NCBI GenBank assembly: GCA_000018565.1
Contig: CP000875.1
Coordinates: forward strand, 377,199 to 441,198
Direction of reading: 5' to 3'
From: Herpetosiphon aurantiacus DSM 785
Lineage (GTDB): Bacteria > Chloroflexota > Chloroflexia > Chloroflexales > Herpetosiphonaceae
Length of the DNA stretch: 64,000 nt
The notes under the pieces are model-generated. The model saw only the letters and a list, made by a program, of their open reading frames with translations. It had not been told where the DNA came from and ran no database searches. Made by a program: the position numbers and the translations under genes. How positions within the stretch are numbered: the stretch's first letter is position 1; each line of letters opens with the position of its first letter. Below, in pieces: positions 5,879 through 63,753 of the stretch.

Positions 5879-7753
5879 ATGGCTGAGCAACACGATGTTG
5901 CCAATGAGCGCGAACAGTTTCAATTCCAGGCTGAAATCCAACAAGTTTTGCATATTCTGATTCACTCGCTGTATACCCACCGCGAGATTTTTGTGCGCGA
6001 ATTAATCTCGAATGCTTCCGATGCCTTGAATCGGGTGCAATTTGAGATGTTGACCAACCAAGATGTGCGCGACCCCGAGCTTGAATTGGCGATCACGTTG
6101 GAAGCCGATAAAGATGCGCGGATCATTCGGATCAGCGATACGGGTATCGGCATGACCCGCGATGATATGATCAAGAATTTGGGCACGGTGGCGCAATCTG
6201 GCGCGAAAGCCTTTTTGCAAAAGTTGGGCGAAGCCAACCCAACCAACAGCAGCGAAATTATTGGTCAATTTGGCGTAGGCTTCTACTCGGTGTTTATGGC
6301 TGCCGATGAAGTGCGGGTCACCTCGCTGTCGTATCAGCCCGATGCAACTGCTTGGCGCTGGACATCGCGCGGCGAAGCAACCTACACCTTGGAAGCAGCC
6401 GAACGCAGCGAACGCGGCACGACGATCGAAATTGTGCTCAAAGAAGATGCCGAAGAATATGCCGAACGCTGGAAACTTGACCAAATTGTGCGCCAACACT
6501 CCAATTTTGTGGCCTTCCCAATTTATTCGGCTGAGGGCGACGAAAAGAAAGTGCTCAACCAACGCACGGCGCTTTGGCGCAAGCAGCCACGCGAAGTCAC
6601 CCAAGAAGAATATAACGATTTCTATCGCCAAACCACGATGGATTTCAACGAGCCATTGAGCACAATTCACATTAGTACCGATGCTCCGGTCGATTTGCAC
6701 GCAATTTTGTTCTTGCCCGCCAAACGTGAGCAAGGCATGATGCGCCAAATTCCTGATCCAGGTTTGAAACTTTATTCGCGCAAGGTGCTGATCCAAGAGC
6801 GCAACGAAGAATTGTTGCCCAAACATCTGCGCTTTGTCCAAGGTGTGGTCGATTCGGAAGATTTGCCGTTGAATGTCTCGCGTGAAACCGTGCAAAGCAG
6901 CGGCACATTACGCCAAATTGCCAAAATTGTGACCAACAAAATTACCAAAGAAATTGAAACCTTGGCCGAAAACGATGCCGAAAAGTTTGCTGACTTCTGG
7001 CGTGAATTTGGGCCATATTTCAAAGAAGGCTTGGTTACCGATCCTGGCACGCGCAGCCAAATTGAGCCACTATTGCGCTTCCACTCGACCAGCGGCGAGG
7101 GCTTGACCAAGCTCAGCGAGTATGTTGAGCGCATGAAGGAAGGCCAAGAAGATATTTATTATGTGATTGCCGACAACGTGGAAACTGCCCGCCGTTCGCC
7201 ACATCTCGATTATTTCAACGAACGCGGCTACGAAGTGCTGTTGATGCATGAAACGATTGATAGCTTTGTCATCTCCAGTTTGCGCGATTTCCAAGGCAAA
7301 AAATTGCGCTCAGTCGATGATGCCGATATTGCGGGCGACGATGTTGAGCTAGAAGGCTCGCTCTCAGCAGCAACGCTTGGCCAACTGGGCGACCGCATCA
7401 AAGAATTATTGGGCGAGCAAATCAGCGAAGTGCGTGGCTCGAAGTTGCTGCGCAGCAACCCTGTGCGTTTGGCCGCGCCTAGCGACGATTTTGGCCGCGA
7501 TATGGATCGCATTCGGCGTATGATGGGTCAAGAATATAGCGTTCCTAGCCGAATTCTAGAACTCAACCCACGCCACGCGATTGTGCACAACTTGGCCGCC
7601 TTGCTCGATGAGCCAGATCAAGCCGAATTGTTCGAGGTTGCGGTGCAACAATTGTATGGCACGGCTTTGTTGGGCGAAGGCTTACACCCCAACCCCAGCG
7701 AGTTGATCAGCGGTGTCCATGCCTTGATCGCTGCCGCTACCAAAAAACAATAA
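5879..7753 (+). CDS. htpG: Molecular chaperone HtpG (Hsp90)
   Basis: 624 aa. N-terminal GHKL ATPase signature 'YTHREIFVRELISNASDA' and 'GQFGVGFYS'. Full-length Hsp90 architecture. AAGGAG RBS. Confidence 0.95.
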   Translation: MAEQHDVANEREQFQFQAEIQQVLHILIHSLYTHREIFVRELISNASDALNRVQFEMLTNQDVRDPELELAITLEADKDARIIRISDTGIGMTRDDMIKNLGTVAQSGAKAFLQKLGEANPTNSSEIIGQFGVGFYSVFMAADEVRVTSLSYQPDATAWRWTSRGEATYTLEAAERSERGTTIEIVLKEDAEEYAERWKLDQIVRQHSNFVAFPIYSAEGDEKKVLNQRTALWRKQPREVTQEEYNDFYRQTTMDFNEPLSTIHISTDAPVDLHAILFLPAKREQGMMRQIPDPGLKLYSRKVLIQERNEELLPKHLRFVQGVVDSEDLPLNVSRETVQSSGTLRQIAKIVTNKITKEIETLAENDAEKFADFWREFGPYFKEGLVTDPGTRSQIEPLLRFHSTSGEGLTKLSEYVERMKEGQEDIYYVIADNVETARRSPHLDYFNERGYEVLLMHETIDSFVISSLRDFQGKKLRSVDDADIAGDDVELEGSLSAATLGQLGDRIKELLGEQISEVRGSKLLRSNPVRLAAPSDDFGRDMDRIRRMMGQEYSVPSRILELNPRHAIVHNLAALLDEPDQAELFEVAVQQLYGTALLGEGLHPNPSELISGVHALIAAATKKQ

Positions 7754-7775
7754 GTCTGAATGCCCTCACCCCAAC

Positions 7776-7809
7776 CCCTCTCCCACTGCGGTGGGAGAGG
7801 GGCTTTTTG
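7776..7809 (+). terminator. Rho-independent terminator of htpG, formed by a degenerate copy of the GC-rich palindromic repeat
   Basis: Stem cccctctccc / gggagagggg with loop actgcggt, followed by cttttt. Confidence 0.7.
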
Positions 7810-8696: not shown

Positions 8697-10781
8697 ATGT
8701 GGTCGAACCTGAGCCGTTCGCGGTCGTTGTTGACCATTGCGCTCCTTGGGGTCTTGCTTGGTTCACTGAGTTTGTTACCAACGCACACCACCAAGGCCGC
8801 GATTACCGCCTATCAAGCCGCCGATCCAAATCTCGCCCCGTATGCCCAAAATGTGCTCGATCGTTTTGTCCAATACAAAGGTCAGTATTGGCTAGGTGGT
8901 CAGCAAGAAGTTCACTGGGATAATTCGCGCAAAGATGAAATGTCGAACGCAGTTTTTGCCCGCACCAATCCACAACGCTACCCCGCGCTGCGTGGCTGGG
9001 ATTTCCCGATCGGCGGCGCACTGCCCAACGATGGCCAATGGATGATCGACGCGATCATCAGCGATTGGACCAATGCCAACGTTATTCCAACCATCAGCCA
9101 ACACTGGACACCGCTTGCCAGCCAAGGCACTAACCATCAAGATATGTTCACGGTGGTTGATATTGATCGGATGTTTGTTGATGGCACGACTGAACGCACT
9201 AATTATCTGATTTGGCTCGATAATATTGCTGATGATTTGCAACAGCTCGAAGATGCCAACGTGCCAGTGCTATGGCGACCCTACCACGAAGCTGGTGGTG
9301 GTTGGTTCTGGTGGGATAAAGATAATGGAGCCACCAATTATCGCCGCCTTTGGGATGATATGTTTACCTATTTGGTAACCACCCGTGGCCTGCACAACCT
9401 GATCTGGGTTTGGACACCTGGGGTAAAAGGAGTCAGCACGGCTTGGTATCCCGCTGGCCAAGCCGATATTTTGGGCAGCGATGTATATAACGAAACTTCG
9501 GGCAATTACGTGAGTTGGTATGAAGATCTTGGGCGTTTCTCGCAAACCAAGATTAAAGCCCTCAGCGAAACCGACTACATGATGGACCCTGCTCTGTTGA
9601 GCAGTGCGCCATTTGCCTACTTTATGATTTGGCACACCGATATGTTTTATCGCAATACCGATAGCCGCATTCAAAGCACCTATGCGCATTGGGCAACCCT
9701 GAATCGAACCAATGTTGGCCAGATTTGGAATGGTACTCTTGGGATCGCTCCCACAGCAACGCCTGGTACACCAACGCCTACGCCAATTCCTGGGATCGTG
9801 GTCAGCGATTTTGAAGATGGCACGCTGCAGGGCTGGACTGGCACAAACCTGGTTTCAGGGCCAACTGTCAACAACGAATGGGCCGCCAATGGTCAACGTT
9901 CGATCAAAGCTCAAGTTAATTTAGCCGCTACGCCTGCCGATATTCGGCTCGCACAAGCACTGGATTTAACTGGTCAATCACGCATCCAAATTCGCCTGAG
10001 TGCCCAAAATGTTGGGAGCGGTCTCAGTGCTAAGCTCTACATCAAGACGGGAAGCGCCTGGAATTGGAAAGATAGCGGAACTGTGCTGATCGATTCGGGC
10101 ATCAGCTTGCTGACAATTGAATTAGCGGGTGTGCCTGATATCAACCAAGTGCGCGAGTTGGGGGTTGAATTCAACGCACTCACGGGGAATAGTGGCACAG
10201 CAACGATCTACGCCGACTATCTGACCGTGGGTGTGGTCAATAGCAACCAACCAACCCCAACCACGGGGCCAACGGCGACTGCAACGCGCACGCCAACCCA
10301 AGCGCCAACGGCTACGCCAACCAATATTCCAACCGCAACGCGCACGCCAACCCAAGGCCCAACCGCGACTGCAACCACCATTCCAACCGTCACGCCAACG
10401 AATATTCCAACCGCAACGCGCACGCCAACCCAAGTGCCAACTGCTACGCCAACCAGCACTGGCGGCGCTTGTAAGGTTGATTTCAAGGTGACAAGCCAAT
10501 GGGGCGTAGGCTTTATCGCCGATGTTACCGTAACCAATTTGCAGCCAAGCGCCTTAAATGACTGGAATGTGAAATTCAACTTCCCCAGTGGCCAAACCAT
10601 CAGCAACCTATGGAATGGCACACTCAGCCAGACTGGTAGCGCAGTTACCGTCACGAATGCTGGCTGGAATGGCTATCTTGCAGGTAATGGTGGCACAGCC
10701 AACTTTGGTTTCCAAGGTGTTGGTAGTGTTCCAATCTTGCCAAGCAACAGCTTCCAACTCAATGGCGTAACCTGCCAATAA
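8697..10781 (+). CDS. Secreted GH26-family beta-mannanase-like glycoside hydrolase with internal CBM-like domain, PT-linker and C-terminal CBM2
   Basis: Start moved to the ATG at 8697 (AAAGGAG RBS, signal peptide MWSNLSRSRSLLTIALLGVLLG). 'RPYHEAGGGWFWWD' matches the GH26 catalytic-region signature. The C-terminal segment 'GACKVDFKVTSQWGVGF...WNGYLAGNGGTANFGFQGVG...CQ' is a type-2 cellulose-binding module. Linker is 'PTATATRTPTQ...'. Confidence 0.8.
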   Translation: MWSNLSRSRSLLTIALLGVLLGSLSLLPTHTTKAAITAYQAADPNLAPYAQNVLDRFVQYKGQYWLGGQQEVHWDNSRKDEMSNAVFARTNPQRYPALRGWDFPIGGALPNDGQWMIDAIISDWTNANVIPTISQHWTPLASQGTNHQDMFTVVDIDRMFVDGTTERTNYLIWLDNIADDLQQLEDANVPVLWRPYHEAGGGWFWWDKDNGATNYRRLWDDMFTYLVTTRGLHNLIWVWTPGVKGVSTAWYPAGQADILGSDVYNETSGNYVSWYEDLGRFSQTKIKALSETDYMMDPALLSSAPFAYFMIWHTDMFYRNTDSRIQSTYAHWATLNRTNVGQIWNGTLGIAPTATPGTPTPTPIPGIVVSDFEDGTLQGWTGTNLVSGPTVNNEWAANGQRSIKAQVNLAATPADIRLAQALDLTGQSRIQIRLSAQNVGSGLSAKLYIKTGSAWNWKDSGTVLIDSGISLLTIELAGVPDINQVRELGVEFNALTGNSGTATIYADYLTVGVVNSNQPTPTTGPTATATRTPTQAPTATPTNIPTATRTPTQGPTATATTIPTVTPTNIPTATRTPTQVPTATPTSTGGACKVDFKVTSQWGVGFIADVTVTNLQPSALNDWNVKFNFPSGQTISNLWNGTLSQTGSAVTVTNAGWNGYLAGNGGTANFGFQGVGSVPILPSNSFQLNGVTCQ

Positions 10782-22263: not shown

Positions 22264-22354
22264 GGCCCAACTCCTTGATTGAATGACGCGCTGCGTTAGA
22301 GTATAACACGGTATAGGAGTCAGGGACTCTTACAAGGATAGGTTTTAAGTTCCC

Positions 22355-22418
22355 TCACCCCCTAGCCCCCTCGCCCACTGCGGCGGGCGAGGGGGCTAGG
22401 GGGTGAGGGCATGCCAAT
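22355..22418. repeat. GC-rich palindromic MITE-like repeat: minimal perfect hairpin copy
   Basis: ccctcaccccctagccccctcgccc-actgcggc-gggcgagggggctagggggtgaggg. Flanked at 22440-22460 and 22561-22656 by other modules of the same mosaic family (cccttgaaagggt; ccttcgtgtcctttgtgcccttcgtggatc; ctatgttctatgctctat). Confidence 0.8.
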
Positions 22419-22655
22419 CGGCGGTACATCCCACCCAACGATTGTTAAAAACCTACCCTTGAAAGGGTCAGGGATTGAGAGTCGGGGTTTAGGGGATCAG
22501 GCAATTGGCATTGAAGCGTAATCATAATAATCTGTGCTAATCTGTGGCAAAAACAGCCTTCGTGTCCTTTGTGCCCTTCGTGGATCAAACAGTAATTTTG
22601 CGTCCTCGATCCCCAGCTCACCTCTATGTTCTATGCTCTATATTCTATGTTCTGA

Positions 22656-25073: not shown

Positions 25074-25236
25074 CGGTATCCTCCAAGGCGATGCTTGTTC
25101 AATGTCCCTGTCCTCATGGACAGAAAATTCTAACATTAAGTATAGCAAGCTCTGGACCTAGGCGTGTTAGCATGACATTAATACGCACACCCAAAAATAG
25201 CTGTAATGATTCATTGGGTTGGCAATAAACTCTATG

Positions 25237-25337
25237 CCCTCACCCCCTAGCCCCCTCTCCCGCCCGCGAGGCGAGGGGGAATCGCACTCGGAGTGCCCCC
25301 CTCGCCCGCCGCAGTGGGAGAGGGGTTGGGGTGAGGG
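25237..25337. repeat. GC-rich palindromic MITE-like repeat, full-length copy with imperfect terminal inverted repeats
   Basis: Left arm ccctcaccccctagccccctctcccgc...gcgaggcgaggggg; right arm cccctcgcccgccgcagtgggagaggggttggggtgaggg. Followed at 25340-25390 by the module ttgttaacc...cattacacatagaacctag. Confidence 0.8.
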
Positions 25338-25398
25338 TACAGGAAAATTGGTTGTTAACCTCATAAGCCATTACACATAGAACCTAGAAGGAGTTTGC

Positions 25399-27285: not shown

Positions 27286-27300
27286 AACATAGTTGTGGTT

Positions 27301-27343
27301 CCCCCTCGCCTCGCGTGCGGGAGAGGGGGCTAGGGGGTGAGGG
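27301..27343. repeat. GC-rich palindromic repeat (right-arm copy), with associated modules out to about 27535
   Basis: ccccctcgcctcgcgtgcgggagagggggctagggggtgaggg, then ccattgttaacgcg..ccattacagatagagcatagaacatagagc and cccttcgtggatc at 27510-27530. Same order and orientation as the copy upstream of the ABC gene. Confidence 0.75.
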
Positions 27344-27586
27344 AATGCTAGCCATTGTTAACGCGACAAACCATTACAGATAGAGCATAGAACATAGAGC
27401 TTTTTTACCGCAGAGGCCATAGGGCTATCGGCTGAAGGCCCTAGGCTATTGGAACCGGGGGATATTTCAAAAGCCCATAGCCTAAAGCCTAAAGCCATAT
27501 CAGCCTTCATGCCCTTCGTGGATCGAAAACTCCGCCAATATCTATTACACTATAGCCATTGTTTTGAGCAAGGAGGCTTGAACGCT

Positions 27587-31869: not shown

Positions 31870-31908
31870 GCAAACTAGTTAGGGTTAGATGTAGATTTTG
31901 GAGGTTGT

Positions 31909-34101
31909 ATGCGATTACGGATTGGTTTAATCATCACGCTTTTGTTGATGATCACCGTTGGAAAAACCCTGCAAAACCCCAGGGATGTAGCCCAAGCCCT
32001 GTCCCAAACCCCTGATCAAACCACAATTCCGCAAGGATTTTCCCGCATCCAAGAGCAAGAATTTAACGACTTACCACTCAATGCCAATCTGTTGGTTGGC
32101 AGCAGTTTGGTGGTGCGCGGCTCAATTCAGCAAACTGATGTTGATTATTTTGCGCTTGATTTAACCGCTGGTCAGCGTTTAGCAATGGCCACCATTACTA
32201 GCGCCAGCGTCGCCTCCAGCGATACAACCATCCATCTCTATGCTTTCGATGGCGTAAATAGTGATCTGATCGAAACCGATTTGAGCGATGGCATTCTGAG
32301 CAACAGTTCCTCGGTGATCAGTTCTCAGCCAATTACGCTGACCGGAACCTACCTGATTAAAGTTGAAGGTGGCACTGCAACCACGGTTATTCAGCCCTAC
32401 GACTTATATGTGCGAGTGCTGAGCGAAACTGCCAGCGAACAAGAACCTAACGACGAAGTTGCCCAAACCATCGATGCTCAAGCGGCAATCAGCGGGGTAG
32501 TTTCAACCACCAACGATCTTGATCGCTATCAATTTAATGTTAATCCTGGCGACACAATTTTTGCCACCGTTGATTTTGATCCAGAGCGTGATGGCATAAC
32601 TTGGAATGGCTTTCTCGATATTGGCATGATCAACAATACCTATCTTCGGGCTAACGATAGTAATAGTGTTTCACCCAACGCTGAAGCCAATGTGATCACC
32701 GTTCAACAAGCTGGCACTTACGAAATTCGCATTGGCTCACTACTTGAGATCGGTGTGGATGCTAGTTATTTGGCGCAAGTTACGATTATTCCCGCCGCTA
32801 TTCAGGCCAACTGCCAAACCGTGATGAGTTCAGGTGCACCACAGAATATTGGCCCACAAGCTGGAATAATTCAATCGACATTAACCGTCACCCAAGCAGC
32901 CAACATTGCCGATATTGATGTATTGCTCAATTTAGAGCATAGCTTCATGCCCGATTTGGATGTAACCCTGACTGCCCCCGATGGTAATGTGATTAACCTC
33001 TTCACCGATATTGGCAATGTGCAGCAACCTACCGTTAATCTCGTGATTGATCAACAAGCTGCCTTACCACTTGGCACGTATAACGTTTTGAGTGGCACGC
33101 ATTTTGGTCCGAAATGGAATAGCAGCCTCGATTGGTTGGCTGGACAACAAGCCCAAGGCCAATGGATACTGACGATTTATGATGATACCGACCAAAATGC
33201 TGGTGTATTAAATGGTTGGGGCTTGCGGATTTGTGGCATGCCCACGCCAAGCGATTGTCCAGTCGGGATGTCGCGCAGCGTGCTTTATAGCAGCCAATTT
33301 GAGGCCGATAATGGCGGGCTTACTCCAGGCCCATTTGACCAAGAATGGGTTTGGGGTAATCGTAATAGCCCACCAATTGTTGGTGCGTATAGCGGCGAAA
33401 ATAGCTGGAATACCAATTTAACCGGAAATTATCCTAATAGTACCCGCATGCAATTGCTATCACCGCAAATTGACTTAACCAATGTTACGGGGCCAATTTA
33501 TGCAAGTTGGTATCAACGCTATCAGCTTGATAATAGTGTTAACGATTTTTATCAGGTAACGGCCCATAAGCCCCAAGTTGAACAGATTCTCTTTCGCCAT
33601 CAAAGTGCTGCAATGCAAATTAACCTCGGAAATCCTTTGGTTACGCTTGATCAAAGTACAGGTTGGGGACTTCAACGCCATGATCTAAGCGATTTTGCTG
33701 GCACTTCACTCTATTTAACCTGGGATTTCGGTAGTGATGAGGTAGCAAGTTTTGCTGGGATTGCGCTTGATGATGTGGAAATTACTGGTTGTATTGATCC
33801 AGCTCAAATCACGCCAACGAATACGCCAACGCCAAGCAACACGCCAACCCTAACATCAACTCCTAGCAATACGCCAACGCCAAGCAATACGCCAACGGCG
33901 ACCGCAACACCAACCCAAACCTTAACGCCAACTGAAACGCCAACGCCAAGCAATACGCCAACGGCGACCGCAACGCCGACCCAGACCGAAACGCCAACCG
34001 CGACTGAAACACCAAGTATCACCCCAACGAGTACACCAAGTGTAACGGCAGATCCAAGCTTAATCCCGGTCTATCTGCCTTTAGTCAGTAAAGATAATTA
34101 A
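31909..34101 (+). CDS. Secreted multidomain protein: signal peptide - PPC - PPC - proprotein-convertase P-domain - MAM-like domain - PT-linker - conserved C-terminal tail (paralog 1 of 5)
   Basis: GGAGG RBS. PPC signatures 'EQEPNDE..A..I.A...ISGV....D.DRYQFNV..GDT'. P-domain '[29 protein letters not shown]...W.L.I.DD...AG.L..W.L.IC'. MAM-like '[12 protein letters not shown]'. Linker [13 protein letters not shown].... Tail '[12 protein letters not shown]'. No peptidase catalytic domain. Confidence 0.8.
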
Positions 34102-34242
34102 ACCAATTGCGCCAGTCTGGGGATGCCTAGGCTGGCGCAATGCCCCTAAATTCACCCTTGCAATTGGTTAAAAAGTAGCCTATCCTAACTCAATCCCACC
34201 TTCATTATTGCCCCAGCAAAAGCCTTGTTTTAGGAGGTTTGC

Positions 34243-36393
34243 ATGCGTCTACGGATTGGGTTTATCGGCCTCATGATCGCTTTACTTGGGTTAACTGGTA
34301 GTTTACGGGCTTTCAAGCCAGTTCAAGCTGCCCCAAGTAATCCAACTACCGCTCAAATTGCTCAAGCGAATGTCCCGCAGGGGGCAGTCCGCGTTAAAGA
34401 ACAGGAAAGCAACAATACGACTGCCACCGCCAACGCGATCATGTCCAGCAGTACCCTAATTCGCGGGAATATCTGGAATGGTGATGTTGACTTCTATAGC
34501 ATTGAATTAGCCGCTGGCGATCGCCTGACCGCTGCAACCATGAGCGCGGCTTCAGCCTCTGGCAACAACGATACGGTATTAACCTTTTTTGCGCCTGATG
34601 GTACAACCGTGATTGAAACCGATGATAACGATGGCTCACTTGGCGGCAATGCCTCGGTGATTAGTTCGGCTCCGGTGACCCAAACCGCTACCTACTATCT
34701 GCGGTTAAGTAGTACTAGTACCAACCAAGTTCGCTACTACGACTTCTATGTGCGGGTGTTGAGCGAAGCCGCCACTGCTGAAACAGAGCCAAATGATCTT
34801 TTGACAACCGCCCAAGTGTTGCCTACCAGCGGCACAATTTCGGGGGTCTTATCGGCTACAACCGACCTCGATTACTACCAGCTTAACTTGAATGCTGGTG
34901 ATACGATCTTTACCAGCCTCGACCTCAACCCTGAGCGCGATGGCATTGTTTGGAACGGACGACTTGGGATCGGCGCGTTTAATGGCTTTACTTTAGTTGT
35001 TGATGATACCAGTGTAGTCTCACCAAATGCTGAAGCCCATTTTATGACCGTCAAGACGAGTGGTACCTACTATGTGCTGGCCTCAACGACGGCTGCAAGT
35101 ATTCCGGCTGAAGCAACCTATTTGTTGGGTGTCACAGTGTTCCCTGCCGAGCAGCAAGCCAATTGTACAACCTACACCAGCGCTGATGTTGCCAAGACCA
35201 TCCCAACGACTACCAGCTTTATTACCTCAACCTTGACTGTTCCCGACAACTTTATCATCGCTGATCTTGATGTCAGTATCGAACTGACTCATACCAATAT
35301 GCCCGACCTCGATGTTCAACTCCAAGGGCCAGATGGCAATGTTGGAGGGCTATTTACCGATATTAGCAATAATACCCAGACCACGATGAATATCGATCTT
35401 GATGATGAAGCCGCAATTCCAATTGGACTTTTCGCGATTGTCTCGGGCATCCGTTATATTCCAGAGTTGAATTATCGCCTCGATTGGTTCGATGGTGGGC
35501 GATCGGCTGGCACCTGGACTCTCTTGATTCACGATGATACTGCTGCCAACGGTGGAACATTGCAAAATTGGAGCATCACGCTGTGTGCCGCGCCACCAGC
35601 AAGCTGCCCCGATGGTATGAGCATGAGCACAATCACGAGCACTGATTTTGAAGCCAATGATGGTGGCTTTACCCATAGCGGAACTGCTGATTCATGGGAA
35701 TATGGCGCACCAAGCGCTGCTCCATTGATCGGTAGCTATAGTGGGGCTAATAGCTGGAAGACCAACCTTGACGGAACTTATTCGGTCAGTAGTATTGCCA
35801 ATCTCTTCTCGCCATCAATTAGTATTCCCAATGTGACTGGCCCTGTCTACATCCAATGGCAACAACGCTACCAGATGGAAAGTGCTAATTTTGATCATTA
35901 CACGGCCTCGGTTGGTACAGGCGTTGTGACCAAAACCTTGTATGAATTTGATGCAGCAACCATGACCAATGCAGTTGGTAACCCAAGCGTAACCTTCCAA
36001 GAAAGCACAGTTTGGAGTCGCCAGCTCTACGATATTAGCGAGTTCAAGGGTCAATCAATCCAGGCCTTGTATCACCTAGATACTGATAGTTCGGTTCAAT
36101 TGGGTGGTATCGCGATCGACGATTTCCAAATTATGGCCTGTGACGGTGTGGCAGCAACCGCGACCCCAACCGAAGCACCAACCGCTACCAGCACACCAAC
36201 CAACACGCCAACTAACACACCAACCAACACGCCAACTAACACGCCAACCAATACACCGATTATCACGATTACCCCAAGCAATACGCCGACGGCTACGGTT
36301 ACCCCAAGTAACACGCCAACCGTTACCCCAAGCGTGACCGCTGGGCCAACCATGATTCCGGTTTATATGCCATTAGTCGGTAAAGACCAATAG
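34243..36393 (+). CDS. Paralog 2 of the secreted PPC-PPC-P-domain-MAM-like-PT-linker family
   Basis: Same architecture as paralog 1. Signal peptide '[23 protein letters not shown]'. Tail '[12 protein letters not shown]'. Confidence 0.8.
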
Positions 36394-36547
36394 ATCAGCC
36401 CTTGCCTAATAATGCAGCCCGTGGCTTAACCACGGGCTGTACTCGTTAACAGCACCAAACTGCCCCTTGTGTTTGCTCACCCTATAGCCTACGCTAACTC
36501 AAGCCCCGCTCATCGCTTCGATAAAACCTTGATTGTAGGAGGTTCGT

Positions 36548-38629
36548 ATGCGTTTACGGATTGGGTTTATCGGTCTTATGATCGCCCTGCTCGGATTAAC
36601 GGGCGGCTTGCGTAGTTTAACCAGCGTTCAAGCAGTACCCAACGCCCCTCAAAATCTCGCAGCCCACCAACTTAATACTCCTCAAGGATTTGCGCGGATT
36701 AGCGAACAAGAATCAAACGATACTCCTGCCATGGCCCAGCCAATCATTGGCGATTCAGCCGTCATTCGCGGCTATATCACTGCCAATGATAGCGATTTCT
36801 TGGCAATTCCACTTACTAGCGTCCAACGGGTGGTCGCAGCAACTATGACCTCGGCTTCAGCCACAAATATTGTCGATTCGATCCTGACTCTCTATCAACC
36901 TGATGGGACAACTGTCTTGGAGCTTGATAATGACGATGGGATTTTTGGCGTGAGTTCTTCGGTTATCAGCTCAGCGATTATCACGACTACTGCAACCTAC
37001 TATCTCAAGGTCACCGCCAACAATACGACGAATAAAATTTATTATTACGATTTATATGTACGGATTTTAACCAGCGAACCAATTGTCGAACAAGAGCCAA
37101 ATGAGCCAGCTCAAATGCTGCCAGCAGCTGGGATTGTCAGTGGGATTATTAGCCAAACTGGCGATATTGATCGTTTTCAGCTGGCCTTGAATCCAGGCGA
37201 TACGTTGTTTACAACCCTCGATATAGACCCCGAACGTGATGGCATTAGCTGGAATGGGCGGGTAACGATCGGGCCATTTGGGCCAAATATCATCACAATC
37301 AACGATGGCAATGCGGTTTCGCCCAATGCCGAATCGGCCCAATTAACCGTTAAAGAAGCTGGTAATTATATAATCAGCGTCGATAACCTATCAGCAATTA
37401 ATAATTCGACCTACATCCTACAAGTGCTGATCATCCCAGCCGAAGAGCAAGCCAATTGTCAGACCTATATGAGCACCGATGTCAATAAAACAATTCCACC
37501 TGATCCTGGTATGATCACGTCGGGATTAAATATTCCTGACAATCTCTTGATTGGCGATTTAGACTTGATTATTCAGCTTGATCATACCTTTATACCTGAT
37601 CTCGATGCGCAATTGACTACGCCTGATGGGAATATCCTTGGGCTATTCAGCGATATTGGAATCACGACTAGTGCCCCAGCGAGCATGAACCTGATTATTG
37701 ATGATGAAGCAGCCTTACCATCATTTCAAGCGCTTAGCGTCAATGGATTGATCAACTTGCCTGAGGCAGCCTATCGGATGAGTTGGTTTGATGGCCAACG
37801 TACCCAAGGCAATTGGACATTAACGCTCTATGATGATGCAACTGGCGATGGGGGCACATTACTCAATTGGGGCTTGCAGGTTTGCGCTGCGCTGCCACCC
37901 GCCGATTGTCCTGATGGCACGGTTAGCAGCACCATCTACAGCACCGATTTTGAAGCAAATGATGGGGGCTTTACCCATAGCGGAACCACTGATCCATGGC
38001 AATATGGTCAACCAAACTCAGCGCCAATTGTGGGCAGTTATAGTGGGAGCAATAGTTGGAAAACCAATTTAACTGGCAATTATCCCGCTTTAATGAATGC
38101 CAACCTAACGTCGCCGGCCATTGATCTTAGCGGTGTAGTTGGGCCAATTCAGGTGCAATGGCAACAACGCTATCAAATCGAATCAGCAGCATTTGATAAT
38201 TATGCAGCACAGATTGTTGGTAGTAGCAACCAAGTACTCTTTCAGCATCGCGATGGCGTAATGCGTGAATCAGTTGGCAATCCGCTGGTTACGGTTCAAG
38301 CAAGCACTGGTTGGAGCCGCCAACTGCATGATATTAGTAGCTTTGTGGGTCAGTCGATTCAACTGCAATTCCATATGGATACTGATTCCAGCGTTGAACT
38401 GGCGGGTGTCGCCATTGATGATGTGCTGGTAACTGGTTGTGTTGTGCTCCCTACGGCCACCCCAACCGAAACGCCAACTAACACACCGACCAATACCCCC
38501 ACCGAAACCCCAACCAATACGCCGACGGTTACGGTTACGCCAAGTAATACACCAATCGTTACCCCAAGCGTGACGGCTGGGCCAACGACGATTCCAGTTT
38601 ATCTGCCGTTGGTTAGTAAAGGCGAATAA
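36548..38629 (+). CDS. Paralog 3 of the secreted PPC-PPC-P-domain-MAM-like-PT-linker family
   Basis: Same architecture. Tail '[12 protein letters not shown]'. The leader 36394-36547 is nearly identical to 38630-38784. Confidence 0.8.
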   Translation: MRLRIGFIGLMIALLGLTGGLRSLTSVQAVPNAPQNLAAHQLNTPQGFARISEQESNDTPAMAQPIIGDSAVIRGYITANDSDFLAIPLTSVQRVVAATMTSASATNIVDSILTLYQPDGTTVLELDNDDGIFGVSSSVISSAIITTTATYYLKVTANNTTNKIYYYDLYVRILTSEPIVEQEPNEPAQMLPAAGIVSGIISQTGDIDRFQLALNPGDTLFTTLDIDPERDGISWNGRVTIGPFGPNIITINDGNAVSPNAESAQLTVKEAGNYIISVDNLSAINNSTYILQVLIIPAEEQANCQTYMSTDVNKTIPPDPGMITSGLNIPDNLLIGDLDLIIQLDHTFIPDLDAQLTTPDGNILGLFSDIGITTSAPASMNLIIDDEAALPSFQALSVNGLINLPEAAYRMSWFDGQRTQGNWTLTLYDDATGDGGTLLNWGLQVCAALPPADCPDGTVSSTIYSTDFEANDGGFTHSGTTDPWQYGQPNSAPIVGSYSGSNSWKTNLTGNYPALMNANLTSPAIDLSGVVGPIQVQWQQRYQIESAAFDNYAAQIVGSSNQVLFQHRDGVMRESVGNPLVTVQASTGWSRQLHDISSFVGQSIQLQFHMDTDSSVELAGVAIDDVLVTGCVVLPTATPTETPTNTPTNTPTETPTNTPTVTVTPSNTPIVTPSVTAGPTTIPVYLPLVSKGE

Positions 38630-38784
38630 ATGTATCGCGTCGCTAAAATCGCAGCCCGTGGTTAATCCACGGGCTGCCCGTATTAACAGCACTAAACTCA
38701 CCCTTGTATTTGGATGTTGTCGCGCCTATGCTAGCCCAATCCCCGCTCATTGCTTCGATAAAACCTTGATTGTAGGAGGCTTGT

Positions 38785-40912
38785 ATGCGTTTCAGGATTG
38801 GGTTTATCGGCCTTATGCTTGTCGTACTTGGGTTAACTGGTAGTTTGCGGGCTTTCAAGCCAGTTCAAGCCGCCCTCAGTAATCCAAATACCTCACGAAT
38901 TGTTCAAACGCATGTGCCGCAAGGTGCAGCTCGGATCAATGAACAAGAAAGTAATAATACACTTGCAACGGCTAACCCGATCATGGCGAGTAGGGCGATC
39001 ATTCGTGGGATTATCTGGAGTGGTGATGTTGATATGTATCGGATTGAATTAGCAGCAGGCGACCGATTGAATGTCGCGACCATGACTTCCGCTGCAACCC
39101 ATAGCAGCACTGACACCGTACTAAGCCTGTATGCACTCGATGGAACAAGCCTCATTGAATTAGACGATGACGATGGAACATTTGGTAGTCTTTCATCAGT
39201 CATTAGCTCAGTTCCGGTCACCATAACAGGTACATATTATATTCGTATCAATGCGTTCTTGGCTACCGCCCAAGTTCGTTACTACGATTTGTATGTACGC
39301 ATCTTTAGCGAAGCCACCACTGCTGAGCAAGAACCAAATGATGTTGTTGGCACAGCCCAAGTGTTGCCAGCCAGCGGCGCTGTTGAAGGTAGTTTATCCG
39401 CCACGACTGATGTTGATCTGTTTAAATGCTGGCGATACGATTTTTACGAGTATCGACTTTAACCCTGAACGTGATAGCACAAATTGGAATGGAAGCCTCG
39501 GTATTGGACTATTTAACGGTCTTATTTTATTCGCTGATGATAACAGTACTTCGGCTCCGCCGAATGCTGAGGCTCATTTTATGACCGTTAAAAATAGTGG
39601 AACCTATTATGTTGTTGTTTCAACAAGTGCGAGCAGTATTCCGGCTGAGGCAACCTATCTATTAAATGTTACGACCTTTCCTGCCGAGCAACAAGCGAAC
39701 TGCACAACCTACACCAGCACCGATGTTGCCAAAACGATTCCAACCACCACCAGTTTTATCACCTCAACTTTGAGCGTTCCAGATAACTTTATCATTGCCG
39801 ATCTTGATCTAAGCATTCAATTGACCCATAACAACATGCCCGACCTCGATGTCCAGTTGCAAGGGCCAGATGGTAATGTTGGTGGGCTATTTACCGATAT
39901 TGGATCAAATCTTGTGACGATGATGGATCTTGACCTTGATGATGAAACAGGGATCACGATTAACAGCTTTGCGGCTGTAGCTGGGATGAAGTATATTCCT
40001 GAATCTGTCTATCGCCTCAATTGGTTTGACGGTGGTCGCTCAGCCGGCACTTGGACGCTGTTGATTCACGATGATCTCGCTAGCAATGGTGGTACACTCC
40101 AAAACTGGAGTATTACGCTGTGTGCCGCCCCTCCCGCGAGCTGCCCCGATGGTATGAGCATGAGCACAATCACGAGCACCGATTTTGAGGACAATAATGG
40201 TGGTTTTACTCACAACGGAACCGGCGATACATGGGAGTATGGTGCACCAATCGCCGAACCACTGATCGGCAGTTACAGCGGGGTTAATAGTTGGAAAACT
40301 AATTTGGATGGAACCTATAGTGCTAGCAGTGTTGCCGATCTCTTCTCACCATCAATCAGTATTCCGAATGTGGCTGGCCCAGTCTATTTGCAATGGCACC
40401 AACGCTATCAGATGGATACGGCTGGATCTGATCGCTATAGCGCATCAATTGGTGCTGGGGCTGTGACCAAAACCCTGTATGAGTTTGAGTCAGCCGTAAT
40501 GACCAATCCAGTTGGCAATCCAAGCGTGACCTTCCAAGAAAGCACAGTTTGGAGTCGTCAGTTACACGAAATTAGCGAGTTCAAGGGTCAATCGGTTCGG
40601 GTTCAATATCACCTTGATAGTAATGCTACAACGAATTTGGGTGGCGTTGCAATCGACGATTTTCAAATTATGACATGTGATGAGGTGATCGCAACCCCAA
40701 CCAACACCCCAACTGCAACTCCAACCAACACCCCAACTGCAACTCCAACCGCAACCCCAACCGCAACCCCAACCGCAACCCCAACCAACACCCCAACCAA
40801 TACGCCAACGGTTACGGTTACGCCAAGTAATACGCCAACCGTTACCCCAAACGTGACGGCTGGGCCAACGACGATTCCGGTCTATCTGCCACTAGTCGTT
40901 AGAGGCGAATAG
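38785..40912 (+). pseudogene. Paralog 4/5 of the same family, disrupted by a +1 frameshift in an A-run (39424-39426); the two ORF fragments are 38785-39462 and 39251-40912
   Basis: N-terminal and C-terminal parts align to the other paralogs in different frames. Removing one A from 'tttaaatgct' restores '...[23 protein letters not shown]...'. Tail '[12 protein letters not shown]'. Confidence 0.65.
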
Positions 40913-44444: not shown

Positions 44445-44561
44445 CGTTCGAGCATAACGTCAATCCATCTCCCTGCCCCTGCGTTACAAGGGTAGGTTTC
44501 TGCTGCGAACCACGGATAGACTGGTTCATCGGTGAATGGATGAGGACTCTGATTGCCCTTG

Positions 44562-44624
44562 AGGGGGTGCAGGGGGATTAAAGCCCCCTGCGTCTCCCGC
44601 CTTGAGGCGGGACGAAGGGTGGTG
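44562..44624 (+). repeat. Two-hairpin structured repeat element (copy 1), inside the opu operon spacer
   Basis: gggggtgcagggggattaaagccccctgcg + tcccgcc-ttga-ggcggga + cgaagggtgg. A second copy at 49449-49509 shows a compensatory stem change. Confidence 0.7.
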
Positions 44625-44693
44625 ATCGATGAGGCTTGTTAATAACCTATGGAATGAGTCGAGGGTGAGGGAAATGTACAGGGAGTTATCGGC

Positions 44694-49377: not shown

Positions 49378-49448
49378 AAATTCTTCCTTATAGCAATAAT
49401 ACTTTTAATCTATCTTCAATTGTATTGCAATCCAAATGGTCAAATTTA

Positions 49449-49509
49449 GGGGGTGCAGGGGGATGAAAACACCCTGCGTTTCCCTCCAGCGGAGGGACGG
49501 AAGGGTGGC
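49449..49509 (+). repeat. Two-hairpin structured repeat element (copy 2)
   Basis: gggggtgcagggggatgaaaacaccctgcg + tccctcc-agc-ggaggga + cggaagggtgg. Stem 2 differs from copy 1 by a compensating G:C to T:A pair. Confidence 0.7.
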
Positions 49510-49560
49510 GAAATAAAATCTAGGCTTATAAATAGATGTCGATAACAGCGCTTAAATTGC

Positions 49561-49589
49561 TTGACATAGCCTCAAGATTTCTTTATACT
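49561..49589 (+). promoter_or_regulatory. Strong sigma-70-type promoter of the FadR-family regulator operon
   Basis: TTGACA (49561-49566), 17-nt spacer, TATACT (49584-49589). Confidence 0.6.
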
Positions 49590-63319: not shown

Positions 63320-63464
63320 TTGCTAAGCTCTGTTGGTTCAATCGCCCTCGCTGCCGTTTTGGTGGCGAGGGCTTTTTGATCCACGAAGGCCACAAAGGAC
63401 ACGAAGGGGAAATGTCTATTAACTATAGGGGTATTAGTTCATTGGGCTGGTAATCAATTGTATG

Positions 63465-63678
63465 CCCTCACTCCCTAGCCCTCTCTCCCGCAGGCGAGGC
63501 GAGGGGCTGGGGGCTTTCAAGGGTAGGTTTTCAACAATCATTGGGTAGGATGCACCGTCGCTGTTCATGCCCTCACCCCCTAGCCCCCTCTCCCGCAGGC
63601 GAGGCGAGGGGGAAACCCTTGATCATGATACTGGATATCCCCTCGCCCGCCGCTGTGGGAGAGGGGTTGGGGTGAGGG
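63465..63678. repeat. GC-rich palindromic MITE-like repeat, about 1.5 nested/tandem copies
   Basis: ccctcactccctagccctctctcccgcaggcgaggcgagggg, then caagggtaggtttt..., then a second full unit ccctcaccccctagccccctctcccgcaggcgaggcgaggggg...cccctcgcccgccgctgtgggagaggggttggggtgaggg. An inverted 'cttcgtg' module lies at 63380-63410. Confidence 0.8.
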
Positions 63679-63753
63679 AACGATTAACCTCGTGAACCAA
63701 AAGCTATAACCAATCTCCAATAGCCTCGTGCCTTTACTCCTCTTCATTAAATT

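What the first reader, a model, noticed from the sequence alone, without database searches (positions are those of the whole stretch)
44445..44693. Two-hairpin repeat with a compensatory base-pair change, present inside the opu operon and again upstream of the FadR-family regulator
Copies at 44562-44624 and 49449-49509 align end to end. Hairpin 1 (gcaggggg...ccccctgc vs gcaggg...ccctgc) is conserved. Hairpin 2 is tcccGcc-ttga-ggCggga in copy 1 and tcccTcc-agc-ggAggga in copy 2: both strands changed together, keeping the pairing. A conserved 'cg(a/g)aagggtgg' follows. Covariation argues the selected unit is an RNA (or cruciform) structure, such as a small ncRNA, a REP-like stabiliser/terminator or a protein-binding structured element, rather than random similarity. 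Copy 1 interrupts an otherwise compact opu-like operon (order permease-SBP-[250-bp spacer]-ATPase-permease) and may set differential expression of the binding protein versus the ATPase. The same spacer also contains fragments ('caagggtaggttt', 'gggtgaggg') of the GC-rich repeat family.
Basis: seen in the sequence. Interest (0 to 1): 0.6.

Follow-up and report, generated by a model that had tools for sequence, protein, structure and literature searches.

The report
Two-hairpin mobile repeat of Herpetosiphon
The two look-alike hairpin pairs are copies of a small repeated DNA element scattered between the genes of Herpetosiphon genomes, an ordinary kind of selfish repeat, but its conserved core also occurs in the non-coding end of a group of insertion sequences in Firmicutes.

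Summary
Window 44558-44627 and 49444-49513 (+) are two copies of a ~70-nt core: G-rich box, hairpin 1, hairpin 2, ACG(G)AAGGGTGG box. Hairpin 2 differs by a G:C to T:A double change.

It is not a two-copy oddity. A pattern scan and a covariance model found 76 copies in the sampled loci of five other Herpetosiphon genomes, often in tandem 155-215 nt apart.

- Copy 1 lies in a ~175-bp MITE-like unit. Its terminal inverted repeats also frame a different GC-rich hairpin cargo at window 22333-22461.
- Copy 2 belongs to a second unit type.
- Copies are insertions. The orthologous opu spacer of H. giganteus lacks the element, and the orthologous FadR spacer holds a copy on the opposite strand.
- The covarying pair is mainly a lineage marker linked to the 3'-tail variant.
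- Mutated stems show G.T and A.C equally (13 vs 14), so no strand-specific RNA selection is visible.
- No promoter or intrinsic terminator was found, and there is no Rfam membership.

Unexpectedly, the same core (31-54 bits with the Herpetosiphon model) ends a ~170-nt covarying structure in the 3' non-coding region of IS1111-type insertion sequences of Paenibacillaceae.

Verdict: a new member of a known kind (MITE/REP-like mosaic repeat). A REP-like effect on opu mRNA is plausible but untested.

The parts
44484..44500 (+). Left terminal inverted repeat of the type-A unit (ttaCAAGGGTAGGTTTc)
   Evidence: Aligned type-A copies share CTTACAAGGGTAGGTTTT...AAAACCTACCCTTGTAAG ends. Intact pairs occur in L047, L089 and at window 22333-22461. 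In L089 the ends form the closing stem of the folded unit (z -5.4).
44507..44527 (+). Inner hairpin of the type-A unit (GAACC...GGTTC)
   Evidence: Conserved 'gaaccac..ggttcatc' block in type-A copies.
44558..44627 (+). Core copy 1 (G-rich box, hairpin 1, hairpin 2, CGAAGGGTGG box)
   Evidence: Model R1 scores it 85.6 bits. Sequence; folds.
44569..44591 (+). Hairpin 1 of copy 1 (8 bp, loop ATTAAAG)
44595..44612 (+). Hairpin 2 of copy 1 (7 bp, loop TTGA; fifth pair G:C)
44638..44658 (+). Degenerate right terminal inverted repeat of the type-A unit (gttaataaccta-tggaatgag)
   Evidence: It aligns with GTTAAAAACCTACCCTTGAAAG of intact copies.
44661..44671 (+). Remnant of the GC-rich hairpin repeat family (gagggtgaggg) abutting the unit
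   Evidence: Other type-A copies are flanked the same way. The family itself appears.
49427..49449 (+). Type-B 5' box (gCAATCCAaatggtcAAATTTAG)
   Evidence: Conserved '..ACAATCCAc..AAATATTAG' lies upstream of type-B copies. The more distal part of the type-B unit is missing here.
49444..49513 (+). Core copy 2
   Evidence: Model R1 scores it 90.2 bits. Sequence.
49455..49477 (+). Hairpin 1 of copy 2 (one G.A mismatch)
49481..49497 (+). Hairpin 2 of copy 2 (7 bp, loop AGC; fifth pair T:A)
22333..22461 (+). Sister element: the same terminal inverted repeats, but carrying the GC-rich long hairpin instead of the two-hairpin core
   Evidence: TIR pair 129 bp apart, no core; I16, 25-nt perfect arms.

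Best explanation
Both copies belong to a high-copy, non-coding, modular interspersed repeat family of Herpetosiphon. It resembles MITEs in unit A and the mosaic REP/BIME repeats of enterobacteria overall.

A ~70-nt core (AGGGGGTG, hairpin 1, GTYT, hairpin 2, ACGGAAGGGTGG) is carried as cargo in at least two longer unit types:
- Type A (copy 1): ~175-210 bp, bounded by ~18-bp terminal inverted repeats. The same repeats also frame another cargo.
- Type B (copy 2): ~130-200 bp, often in tandem arrays.

Shown: the copies are insertions that differ between species at the same intergenic sites, and individual copies then decay about neutrally.

Inferred: the hairpins are kept in the few source copies that amplify, because the element needs them or because perfect palindromes are restored by template switching. 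Type A is mobilised in trans by a transposase that recognises its inverted repeats. That enzyme was not found.

Inferred local effect: copy 1 is transcribed inside the opu polycistronic RNA. It has no U-tract, so it would not terminate transcription. Its two stable stem-loops would shield the upstream binding-protein message from 3' exonucleases, as the REP between malE and malF does in E. coli (established knowledge).
For: Copy number and spread:
56 of them come from H. giganteus, H. geysericola, H. llansteffanensis, H. sp. NSE202 and a Chloroflexia MAG.
- Model R1 finds 76 Herpetosiphon copies above 60 bits. 14 of them were not ascertained by the pattern, and tandem pairs and triplets occur.

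Unit structure:
- Terminal inverted repeats and shared flanks define the unit types.

Insertion polymorphism:
- The opu spacer is 249 nt with the element in this genome. It is 198 nt with other repeats and no R1 hit in H. giganteus, and 48 nt in a Herpetosiphonaceae MAG.
- The GH39-FadR spacer of H. giganteus has a copy on the opposite strand.

Placement and orientation:
- Copies are almost always intergenic. Orientation is mixed: 21 sense and 12 antisense between co-directional genes, 19 convergent, 10 divergent.

Decay and lineages:
- Degenerate copies exist.
- G.T = 13 and A.C = 14 in stems.
- Hairpin-2 type is linked to tail type.
- The loop of hairpin 1 is flipped in L018, L051 and L100.

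No transcription signals:
- No promoter or terminator consensus lies at either copy.

Hairpins in the opu spacer:
- All three orthologous opu spacers keep strong hairpins.
Against: - No autonomous partner was found. There is no IS110- or IS256-type transposase in the Herpetosiphon loci or the window, and no inverted-repeat pair encloses a gene.
- No clear target-site duplication was seen.
- Type B has no terminal inverted repeats, so its mode of spread is unexplained.
- The core is conserved in sequence across phyla. At one orthologous tandem array it is better conserved than the spacers between units. Both points hint at a function beyond selfish spread, although gene conversion among copies could give the second.
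- No transcript data are available.
Confidence: 0.68

Rival explanations
1. The Herpetosiphon copies are orphan modules derived from the non-coding end of an IS1111-type (DEDD recombinase) insertion sequence. They are spread by such a recombinase in trans, as the ssr9 module is by ISPpu9. This is a more specific version of the mobile-element reading.
For: - The same core ends a ~170-nt covarying multi-helix structure. This structure lies between the transposase stop codon and the right subterminal inverted repeat of bona fide IS1111-family elements.
- Those elements carry DEDD_Tnp_IS110 + Transposase_20 domains. Their subterminal repeats have a conserved extension on the left (TAGTTAT(C/A), 7-8 bp) and a 3-bp extension on the right, close to the 7 bp and 3 bp described in PMC11187229.
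- The structure is found in Cohnella, a Paenibacillus MAG (L099) and 9 further metagenomic elements whose transposases are only 50-76% identical.
- R1, trained only on Herpetosiphon, scores these 31-54 bits. None of the ~30 chance pattern hits was reported except L136, where an 18-bit match lies away from the pattern site.
- Precedent for an accessory RNA module that moves, and duplicates in tandem, with or without the IS110-family transposase: PMC12288879.
- Many type-A copies abut GC-rich hairpin repeats. IS110/IS1111 elements often target palindromic repeats (PMC12288879).
Against: - No DEDD transposase lies near any Herpetosiphon copy in ~0.6 Mb sampled.
- Only the ~70-nt core is shared. 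Neither the rest of the Firmicutes structure nor the IS ends are.
- Type A has long terminal inverted repeats unlike IS1111 ends.
- In Firmicutes the strand favoured by G.U pairs (19 vs 5 at variable positions) is antisense to the transposase. The seekRNA of this family is described as lying downstream of the transposase gene, on a transcript driven from the circle-junction promoter that also transcribes that gene (PMC11187229, PMC12288879). The module is therefore probably not the seekRNA itself.
- One IS256-type lineage also carries it.
Confidence: 0.18
2. The core is a strand-specific structured RNA selected at the RNA level: a small RNA gene family, or a cis-regulatory element such as an attenuator or protein-binding site.
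For: - Compensatory changes occur at several stem positions. Hairpin 2, pair 5: G:C 45 / T:A 26. Hairpin 1, pair 1: G:C to A:T in L084, L116 and a P. polymyxa plasmid. Hairpin 1, pair 2: C:G to T:A in L140.
- Pairing is 97% against 54-64% for slid controls.
- In the Firmicutes relatives, G.U exceeds A.C by 19 to 5 on the G-rich strand.
- There is a mild sense bias, 21:12.
- In type A and in a Clostridia relative, GCCCUU can pair either with a downstream AAGGG or with an upstream CAAGGG. This is a switch-like arrangement.
- Weak resemblance to Rfam Clostridiales-2.
Against: - In Herpetosiphon there is no strand bias in wobble versus mismatch.
- Orientation is mixed, and opposite at an orthologous site.
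- No promoter or terminator was found.
- The element is absent from the orthologous opu spacer.
- An orthologous copy decays at the rate of its flanks.
- Covariation is confounded with lineage, and template switching in quasi-palindromes can produce it.
- All Rfam scores are far below threshold.
Confidence: 0.12
3. The element acts as structured DNA during replication, like the E. coli RRS elements that stall polymerase and create lagging-strand gaps, or as a single-strand initiation site.
For: - The E. coli RRS in the lysO-aqpZ spacer contains the identical 14-mer GGGGGTGCAGGGGG, followed by a 12-bp version of hairpin 1. The paper 10.1101/2023.10.01.560376 reports that this segment blocks polymerase. 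R1 scores it 16.7 bits, E 0.008 in 20 kb.
- Firmicutes relatives sit in IS types that move through circular intermediates. In a Paenibacillus conjugative-element-like region one sits between inverted iteron arrays next to parAB and an FtsK-like gene.
Against: - The match to RRS is short, and BLAST finds nothing.
- The window element has only two G5 runs near each other.
- No relation between copy strand and local GC skew was seen (9/5 vs 5/5). The strand pattern along the 3.7-Mb MAG contig is not significant by my reading of the coordinates.
- About 200 stalling sites per genome seems costly.
Confidence: 0.05

Closest known systems
[quoted passage not shown]
   Same: - Small (about 130-210 bp), non-coding, many copies and intergenic.
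- Type A has ~18-bp terminal inverted repeats and folds into a long stem with internal hairpins.
- Copies differ in presence between species, and degenerate copies exist.
   Different: - No autonomous IS with the same ends was found, and no clear target duplication.
- The same ends frame interchangeable cargos.
- Type B lacks terminal repeats and occurs in tandem arrays.
REP/BIME mosaic repeats of enterobacteria (for example the REP between malE and malF)
   Same: - GC-rich extragenic hairpins without a U-tract, in high copy and both orientations.
- Combined with other short modules into mosaics.
- Copy 1 sits between a binding-protein gene and the next gene of an ABC-transporter operon, like the malE-malF REP.
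   Different: - The two hairpins are unlike each other and are flanked by conserved G-rich boxes.
- There is no GTAG tag; a CGTC lies before hairpin 2 in only some copies.
- No RAYT gene was looked for, and no effect on mRNA has been tested.
3' non-coding region of IS1111-family insertion sequences (seekRNA/bridge RNA region; PMC11187229)
   Same: In Paenibacillaceae the same two-hairpin core is part of a conserved structured region. It lies between the transposase stop and the right subterminal inverted repeat of IS1111-type elements.
   Different: - In Herpetosiphon no transposase is nearby and only the core is shared.
- In Firmicutes the strand favoured by G.U pairs is antisense to the transposase, unlike described seekRNAs.
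ssr9 module of ISPpu9 in Pseudomonas putida (PMC12288879)
   Same: A small non-coding module found downstream of an IS110-family transposase, and also alone and in tandem. It is thought to hitch-hike on the IS machinery.
   Different: No sequence relation. ssr9 has its own promoter and a known partner RNA; neither is shown here.
Rfam RF02937 Clostridiales-2 RNA (and RF01762 whalefall-1)
   Same: - The Clostridiales-2 consensus AuAAAauaGGGggUGcaGgGGg..cCCcCugC..GUCGAAGGGAAc resembles the type-B 5' box, hairpin 1 and the 3' box.
- Whalefall-1 resembles hairpin 2 plus the AGGGTGAGGGA remnant.
   Different: - Scores are 19.2 and 15.2 bits against a threshold of 58.6, with a best of 27.8 bits in a Clostridia MAG.
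- Whalefall-1 scores 23.7 against 37.
- The middle of the Clostridiales-2 model does not match.
E. coli RRS (replication risk sequence) elements
   Same: The identical GGGGGTGCAGGGGG followed by a GC-rich hairpin closing with CCCCCTGCG, inside a GC-rich, highly structured ~220-bp repeat.
   Different: - Two copies per genome at fixed positions.
- The rest of the sequence is unrelated, and R1 gives only 16.7 bits.

Membership tests
MITE | Terminal inverted repeats | tested here: met
   Type A has CTTACAAGGGTAGGTTTT...AAAACCTACCCTTGTAAG. In copy 1 the left repeat is intact (44484-44500) and the right one is degenerate (44638-44658). This is not met for type B (copy 2).
MITE | Small, non-coding, multi-copy | tested here: met
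   Units are 130-210 bp. There are 76 copies in the sampled loci of five genomes. A short ORF after copy 1 is not conserved in other copies (read from the flanks).
MITE | Target-site duplication | tested here: inconclusive
   The flanks of the intact copies in L047, L089 and window 22333-22461 show no consistent duplication. L100 has GGGGGCTGG on both sides.
MITE | A related autonomous IS with the same ends | tested here: not met
   No inverted-repeat pair encloses a gene in the sampled loci, and no IS110/IS256 homologue was found. Whole genomes could not be scanned.
MITE / mobile repeat | Presence/absence polymorphism at orthologous sites | tested here: met
   The element is absent from the opu spacer of H. 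giganteus and of a Herpetosiphonaceae MAG. At the FadR spacer the copy is in opposite orientation.
REP/BIME | Short GC-rich extragenic imperfect palindrome in high copy | tested here: met
REP/BIME | Conserved GTAG or CGTC tag at one end, and an associated RAYT transposase | tested here: inconclusive
   CGTC precedes hairpin 2 in copy 1, but it is CGTT in copy 2 and in many others. RAYT genes were not searched for.
REP/BIME | Stabilises upstream mRNA | not testable with these tools
   This needs RNA half-life or 3'-end mapping.
Intrinsic terminator | GC-rich hairpin followed by a T-run | tested here: not met
   No terminator-like site was found in either spacer. The tails are G-rich.
Independent sRNA gene | Own promoter and defined 3' end | tested here: not met
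   There is no sigma-70-like site upstream of either copy. The only site found (49561-49589) lies downstream of copy 2 and serves the FadR gene. Other promoter types are not covered.
Rfam RF02937 Clostridiales-2 | Score at or above the gathering threshold (58.6 bits) | tested here: not met
   19.2 and 15.2 bits.
Rfam RF01762 whalefall-1 | Score at or above the gathering threshold (37 bits) | tested here: not met
   23.7 bits. There was no gathering-level hit anywhere in the window.
IS1111-family seekRNA/bridge RNA | Encoded in the non-coding region next to a DEDD transposase gene | tested here: not met
   Not met for the Herpetosiphon copies. Met for the Firmicutes relatives.
IS1111-family seekRNA/bridge RNA | Same strand as the transposase, with loops complementary to target and donor | tested here: inconclusive
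   G.U counts favour the strand antisense to the transposase. A brief look for target matches in the loops gave nothing clear.
E. coli RRS | G-quadruplex-forming strand on the lagging-strand template that stalls polymerase | not testable with these tools
   Only the shared 14-mer and hairpin are shown. The orientation-versus-GC-skew test was uninformative.

The most novel reading that the evidence does not exclude
The two-hairpin core is a functional nucleic-acid module that has not been described. It has been conserved in sequence from Chloroflexi to Bacillales and probably Clostridia. It belongs to the non-coding end of an IS1111-type clade, but is read from the strand antisense to the transposase. 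That would make it a new accessory RNA (or single-stranded DNA signal) of RNA-guided DEDD recombinases, and Herpetosiphon has amplified it to hundreds of orphan copies.
Probability: 0.2. Interest if true: 0.6.

Novelty: new member of a known kind. Interest (0 to 1): 0.35.

Why it matters
For annotation, these sites should be masked as an interspersed repeat family. They should not be called riboswitches, sRNAs or terminators. The apparent covariation is a useful warning: in amplified palindromic repeats, compensatory differences can be lineage markers or products of template switching.

Two points could repay work.
- The SBP-ATPase spacer keeps a strong hairpin in three lineages, supplied by three different sequences. 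This makes the REP-type 'differential stability inside an ABC-transporter operon' idea directly testable in a Chloroflexi species.
- The shared core in IS1111-type elements of Firmicutes, on the strand opposite the transposase, may point to an unrecognised component of the seekRNA/bridge-RNA recombinase systems now being developed for genome engineering.

Tried and rejected
- **Rfam.** The whole window at gathering thresholds gave nothing. Permissive scans of both copies, the GC-rich repeats, Clostridia loci, a Firmicutes relative and the E. coli RRS gave only sub-threshold hits. A Flavivirus xrRNA hit (E 1.6) was dismissed.
- **Terminator or own-promoter reading.** No consensus sites were found.
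- **Small ORF after the SD-like AAGGGTGG in copy 1.** It is not conserved in other copies.
- **Phage origin.** There were no matches in viral contigs.
- **BLAST of the Firmicutes structure against E. coli.** No match.
- **Plasmid search.** It found only unannotated copies in Brevibacillus, Geobacillus and Paenibacillus plasmids.
- **Transposase near Herpetosiphon copies.** tblastn and an HMM of 9 IS110-type proteins found none.
- **Long inverted-repeat pairs enclosing a gene.** None.
- **Replication-strand bias via local GC skew.** Uninformative.
- **Target-site duplications.** Inconsistent.
- **Literature.** No paper describes Herpetosiphon repeats. The supplementary description of Clostridiales-2 is not held.
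- **RNAalifold on the raw MAFFT alignment.** It mis-drew hairpin 2 because of loop-length differences, so the structure was given by hand.
Full report
**1. The observation**

The window carries two + strand copies of a ~70-nt unit, at 44558-44627 and 49444-49513. Each consists of:
- AGGGGGTG;
- an 8-bp hairpin GCAGGGGG/CCCCCTGC (copy 2 has one G.A mismatch);
- GTYT;
- a 7-bp hairpin, TCCCGCC/GGCGGGA in copy 1 and TCCCTCC/GGAGGGA in copy 2;
- ACG(G)AAGGGTGG.

Both hairpins are predicted as RNA and as DNA. The genes around them are as stated:
- BPD_transp_1, OpuAC, ABC_tran, BPD_transp_1 around copy 1;
- a GH39-like gene and a GntR/FadR_C regulator around copy 2.

The OpuAC protein is identical to one on a 6,346,587-bp contig named Herpetosiphon sp..

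**2. It is a large family**

56 of them come from H. giganteus, H. geysericola, H. llansteffanensis, H. sp. NSE202 and a Chloroflexia MAG.

A covariance model built from 60 distinct Herpetosiphon copies then found 76 copies above 60 bits in those loci. 14 of these do not fit the pattern. The two window copies score 85.6 and 90.2 bits.

Copies often lie 155-215 nt apart in tandem pairs or triplets. Two copies in 64 kb suggests roughly a couple of hundred per genome. That is an extrapolation.

**3. Anatomy beyond the core**

Flanks sort the copies into two unit types.

Type A (copy 1) is a ~175-210-bp unit bounded by CTTACAAGGGTAGGTTTT...AAAACCTACCCTTGTAAG.
- In an intact copy these ends form the closing stem (z -5.4).
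- In the window the left end is intact (44484-44500) and the right end is degenerate (44638-44658).
- The same ends frame a 129-bp element at window 22333-22461 whose cargo is the GC-rich long hairpin, not the two-hairpin core. The frame and the cargo are therefore separable modules.
- Type-A copies commonly abut GC-rich hairpin repeats. The 'gagggtgaggg' after copy 1 is such a remnant.

Type B (copy 2) has a conserved ...ACAATCCAc..AAATATTAG box, and further upstream CACGAAGG-type and GGGATCAG-type short repeats. Copy 2 keeps only the proximal box.

**4. Copies are insertions**

- The orthologous SBP-ATPase spacer is 249 nt with the element here.
- It is 198 nt in H. giganteus, filled by GC-rich hairpin repeats with no R1 hit.
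- It is 48 nt with one plain 12-bp hairpin in a Herpetosiphonaceae MAG.
- The orthologous GH39-FadR spacer of H. giganteus is 638 nt. It holds a copy on the opposite strand among other repeat modules.
- With crude ORF calls, only about 9 of 76 copies overlap an ORF. Orientation is 21 sense and 12 antisense between co-directional genes, 19 between convergent genes and 10 between divergent genes.

**5. What the covariation means**

Within 74 distinct copies the fifth pair of hairpin 2 is G:C in 45 and T:A in 26.

The hairpin-2 type is almost perfectly linked to the 3'-tail variant. GCC-TTGA goes with TGGT in 27 of 28 copies, GCC-RGYR with TGGC in 8 of 8, and GC-TGG with TGGA in 7 of 9. The change was therefore inherited by amplified lineages.

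Other compensations exist:
- Hairpin 1, pair 1: G:C to A:T in L084, L116 and a Paenibacillus plasmid.
- Hairpin 1, pair 2: C:G to T:A in L140.
- Matched run-length changes in both arms of hairpin 1.

So source copies do keep perfect hairpins. Several results argue against RNA-level selection in Herpetosiphon:
- Single mutations in stems give G.T 13 times and A.C 14 times, after dropping 9 alignment artefacts.
- An orthologous pair (L046/L095) differs at 3 of 70 core positions, against 4-10% in the flanks. One of the three changes breaks a hairpin-2 pair and another lies in its loop.
- The top of hairpin 1 is found flipped in L018, L051 and L100.

Template switching in quasi-palindromes (established knowledge) can both flip loops and create 'compensatory' pairs. 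These data therefore do not single out RNA.

One orthologous tandem array keeps its cores better than the spacers between them. That could reflect constraint or gene conversion.

**6. No signals of an independent RNA gene or terminator**

Neither spacer has a terminator-like site, and neither copy has a promoter-like site upstream. The one good promoter-like site (49561-49589, TTGACA-17-TATACT) lies downstream of copy 2, and its sequence is also present before the H. giganteus FadR gene. Copy 2 is therefore outside the FadR leader.

Rfam gives no family at threshold. Weak hits to Clostridiales-2 (19.2 and 15.2 bits against 58.6) and whalefall-1 (23.7 against 37) show resemblance only.

**7. 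Likely local effect**

No promoter-like or terminator-like site lies in the spacer, so copy 1 should be transcribed within the opu polycistronic RNA. There it would form two stable stem-loops, 114 nt after the SBP stop.

All three orthologous spacers contain strong hairpins of unrelated sequence:
- -88 kcal/mol over 249 nt here, not different from shuffles over the whole spacer, although the core alone has z -2.75;
- -89 kcal/mol, z -4.1, in H. giganteus;
- -29 kcal/mol, z -3.0, in the MAG.

By analogy with the malE-malF REP of E. coli, a hairpin here may protect the binding-protein message. This is inference only.

**8. Relatives in Firmicutes**

The same scan found the core in Cohnella, Paenibacillus, Brevibacillus and Sulfobacillus.

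There it is the 3' part of a ~170-nt structure with several covarying helices (24 sequences, where 13 of 33 pairs have compensatory changes).

In Cohnella rhizosphaerae the structure lies inside a multi-copy IS.
- The IS has a DEDD_Tnp_IS110 + Transposase_20 protein.
- Its subterminal inverted repeats have a conserved extension on the left (TAGTTAT(C/A), 7-8 bp) and a 3-bp extension on the right, with a conserved target flank. This is close to the IS1111-family layout of PMC11187229, which gives 7 bp and 3 bp.

A metagenome scan with a different pattern gave 49 loci, of which I judged 19 true members.
- Nine carry IS110-type transposases only 50-76% identical to the Cohnella one.
- In every case the core lies downstream of the transposase and on the opposite strand. 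It starts either 7-13 nt or about 270 nt after the stop codon.
- One closely related IS256-type lineage (Transposase_mut) carries it in sense orientation, between the stop codon and the right inverted repeat. Related copies lie on Brevibacillus and Geobacillus plasmids.
- Other copies stand in plasmid-like or conjugative-element-like regions without a transposase nearby.

R1, trained only on Herpetosiphon, scores all true members 31-54 bits. None of the ~30 chance pattern hits was reported except L136, where an 18-bit match lies away from the pattern site. The resemblance therefore goes well beyond the search patterns.

At variable stem positions, G.U outnumbers A.C by 19 to 5 on the G-rich strand. 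That is the strand antisense to the IS1111-type transposase, which is unexpected if this were the seekRNA. The seekRNA region is described as lying downstream of the transposase gene, on a transcript from the circle-junction promoter that also drives that gene (PMC11187229, PMC12288879).

The ssr9 module of ISPpu9 is a precedent for an accessory RNA module that travels with, or without, an IS110-family transposase and duplicates in tandem (PMC12288879).

No DEDD or IS256-type transposase lies near any Herpetosiphon copy.

**9. Other leads**

- A Clostridia MAG has three tandem ~160-nt units with a related layout: a CAAGGGC-GAAA-GCCCUUG hairpin, then GGGGUGCAGGGG...CCCCUGC, a second hairpin, then GAAGGGC. 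They score 26 bits.
- The E. coli RRS element contains the identical GGGGGTGCAGGGGG plus an extended hairpin 1. This segment is reported to stall DNA polymerase. R1 gives it 16.7 bits.
- A test of copy strand against local GC skew was uninformative.

**10. Verdict**

The finding is real and is a member of a Herpetosiphon-wide, modular, MITE/REP-like repeat family.
- The RNA-structure reading is not supported by strand or orientation evidence in Herpetosiphon.
- The operon-tuning idea is plausible but untested.
- The link of the core to IS1111-type non-coding ends in Firmicutes is the most interesting by-product, and its function is open.

Noticed in passing
window 22333-22461: A 129-bp element has the same terminal inverted repeats as the unit carrying copy 1. 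Its cargo is a perfect 25-nt-arm GC-rich hairpin (CCCTCACCCCCTAGCCCCCTCGCCC / GGGCGAGGGGGCTAGGGGGTGAGGG) instead of the two-hairpin core. Solo repeat-end sites lie at about 38694, 51203 and 63518.
   Followed up: partly
window 7763-7802, 22349-22412, 25234-25340, 27294-27347, 63462-63681: This is a second abundant repeat family of long GC-rich hairpins (CCCTCACCCC..CCCCTCTCCC..GGGAGAGGGG..GGGGTGAGGG). It fills the orthologous opu spacer of H. giganteus and often abuts type-A units.
   Followed up: partly
window 22557-22592, 27504-27529, 63372-63407; L116 14900-15390: Short CACGAAGG/CCTTCGTG-type repeats, and GGGATCAG-type repeats in other loci, form further modules of the intergenic mosaics and of type-B units.
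   Followed up: no
window 31900-40900: Four tandem ~2.3-kb paralogous gene copies are 60-88% identical in the repeat blocks and have CCAAC-rich (Thr/Pro-like) repeat tails. A similar repeat lies at 10251-10458. The H. giganteus neighbourhood has P_proprotein/PPC-type genes.
   Followed up: no
L119 4030-4260 (E. coli K-12 NC_000913.3 about 915,030-915,260, lysO-aqpZ spacer): The published RRS element shares GGGGGTGCAGGGGG plus a hairpin with the core. Its upstream half gives a sub-threshold hit to Rfam TwoAYGGAY (30.6 bits against 43). The RRS may therefore overlap a TwoAYGGAY-like structured element.
   Followed up: partly
L060 5690-7407; L073, L074, L085, L103 (Cohnella rhizosphaerae): This is a multi-copy IS1111-family element with a 485-nt 3' non-coding region. 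That region contains a long hairpin (5913-6096) in addition to the core-bearing structure. The target flank AGCGGCTCTCCAGTCCG is conserved. Relatives whose core starts 7-13 nt after the stop codon (L130, L139, L140, L151; 4 nt in L099) have no room for the long-hairpin segment.
   Followed up: partly
L070 3675-4270 (Paenibacillus plantiphilus): A copy of the Firmicutes structure sits between inverted arrays of GAGCCAC..TTAA iterons. It lies next to a pemK RNA motif (45.9 bits), parA/parB-like genes and an FtsK/SpoIIIE-family gene. This looks like a plasmid or conjugative-element maintenance region.
   Followed up: no
L008 5456-5859 (Candidatus Limiplasma MAG): Three tandem ~160-nt units each repeat the last codons of the upstream gene plus a related two-hairpin element. 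GCCCUU can pair either upstream (CAAGGGC) or downstream (AAGGGC), which is a switch-like arrangement.
   Followed up: no
L007 4379-4633, L028 499-744, L027 5714-6105: An orthologous tandem array of type-B units (2, 2 and 3 copies in three species) lies just upstream of a conserved gene start with a TATACT box. The cores are better conserved than the spacers between them.
   Followed up: partly
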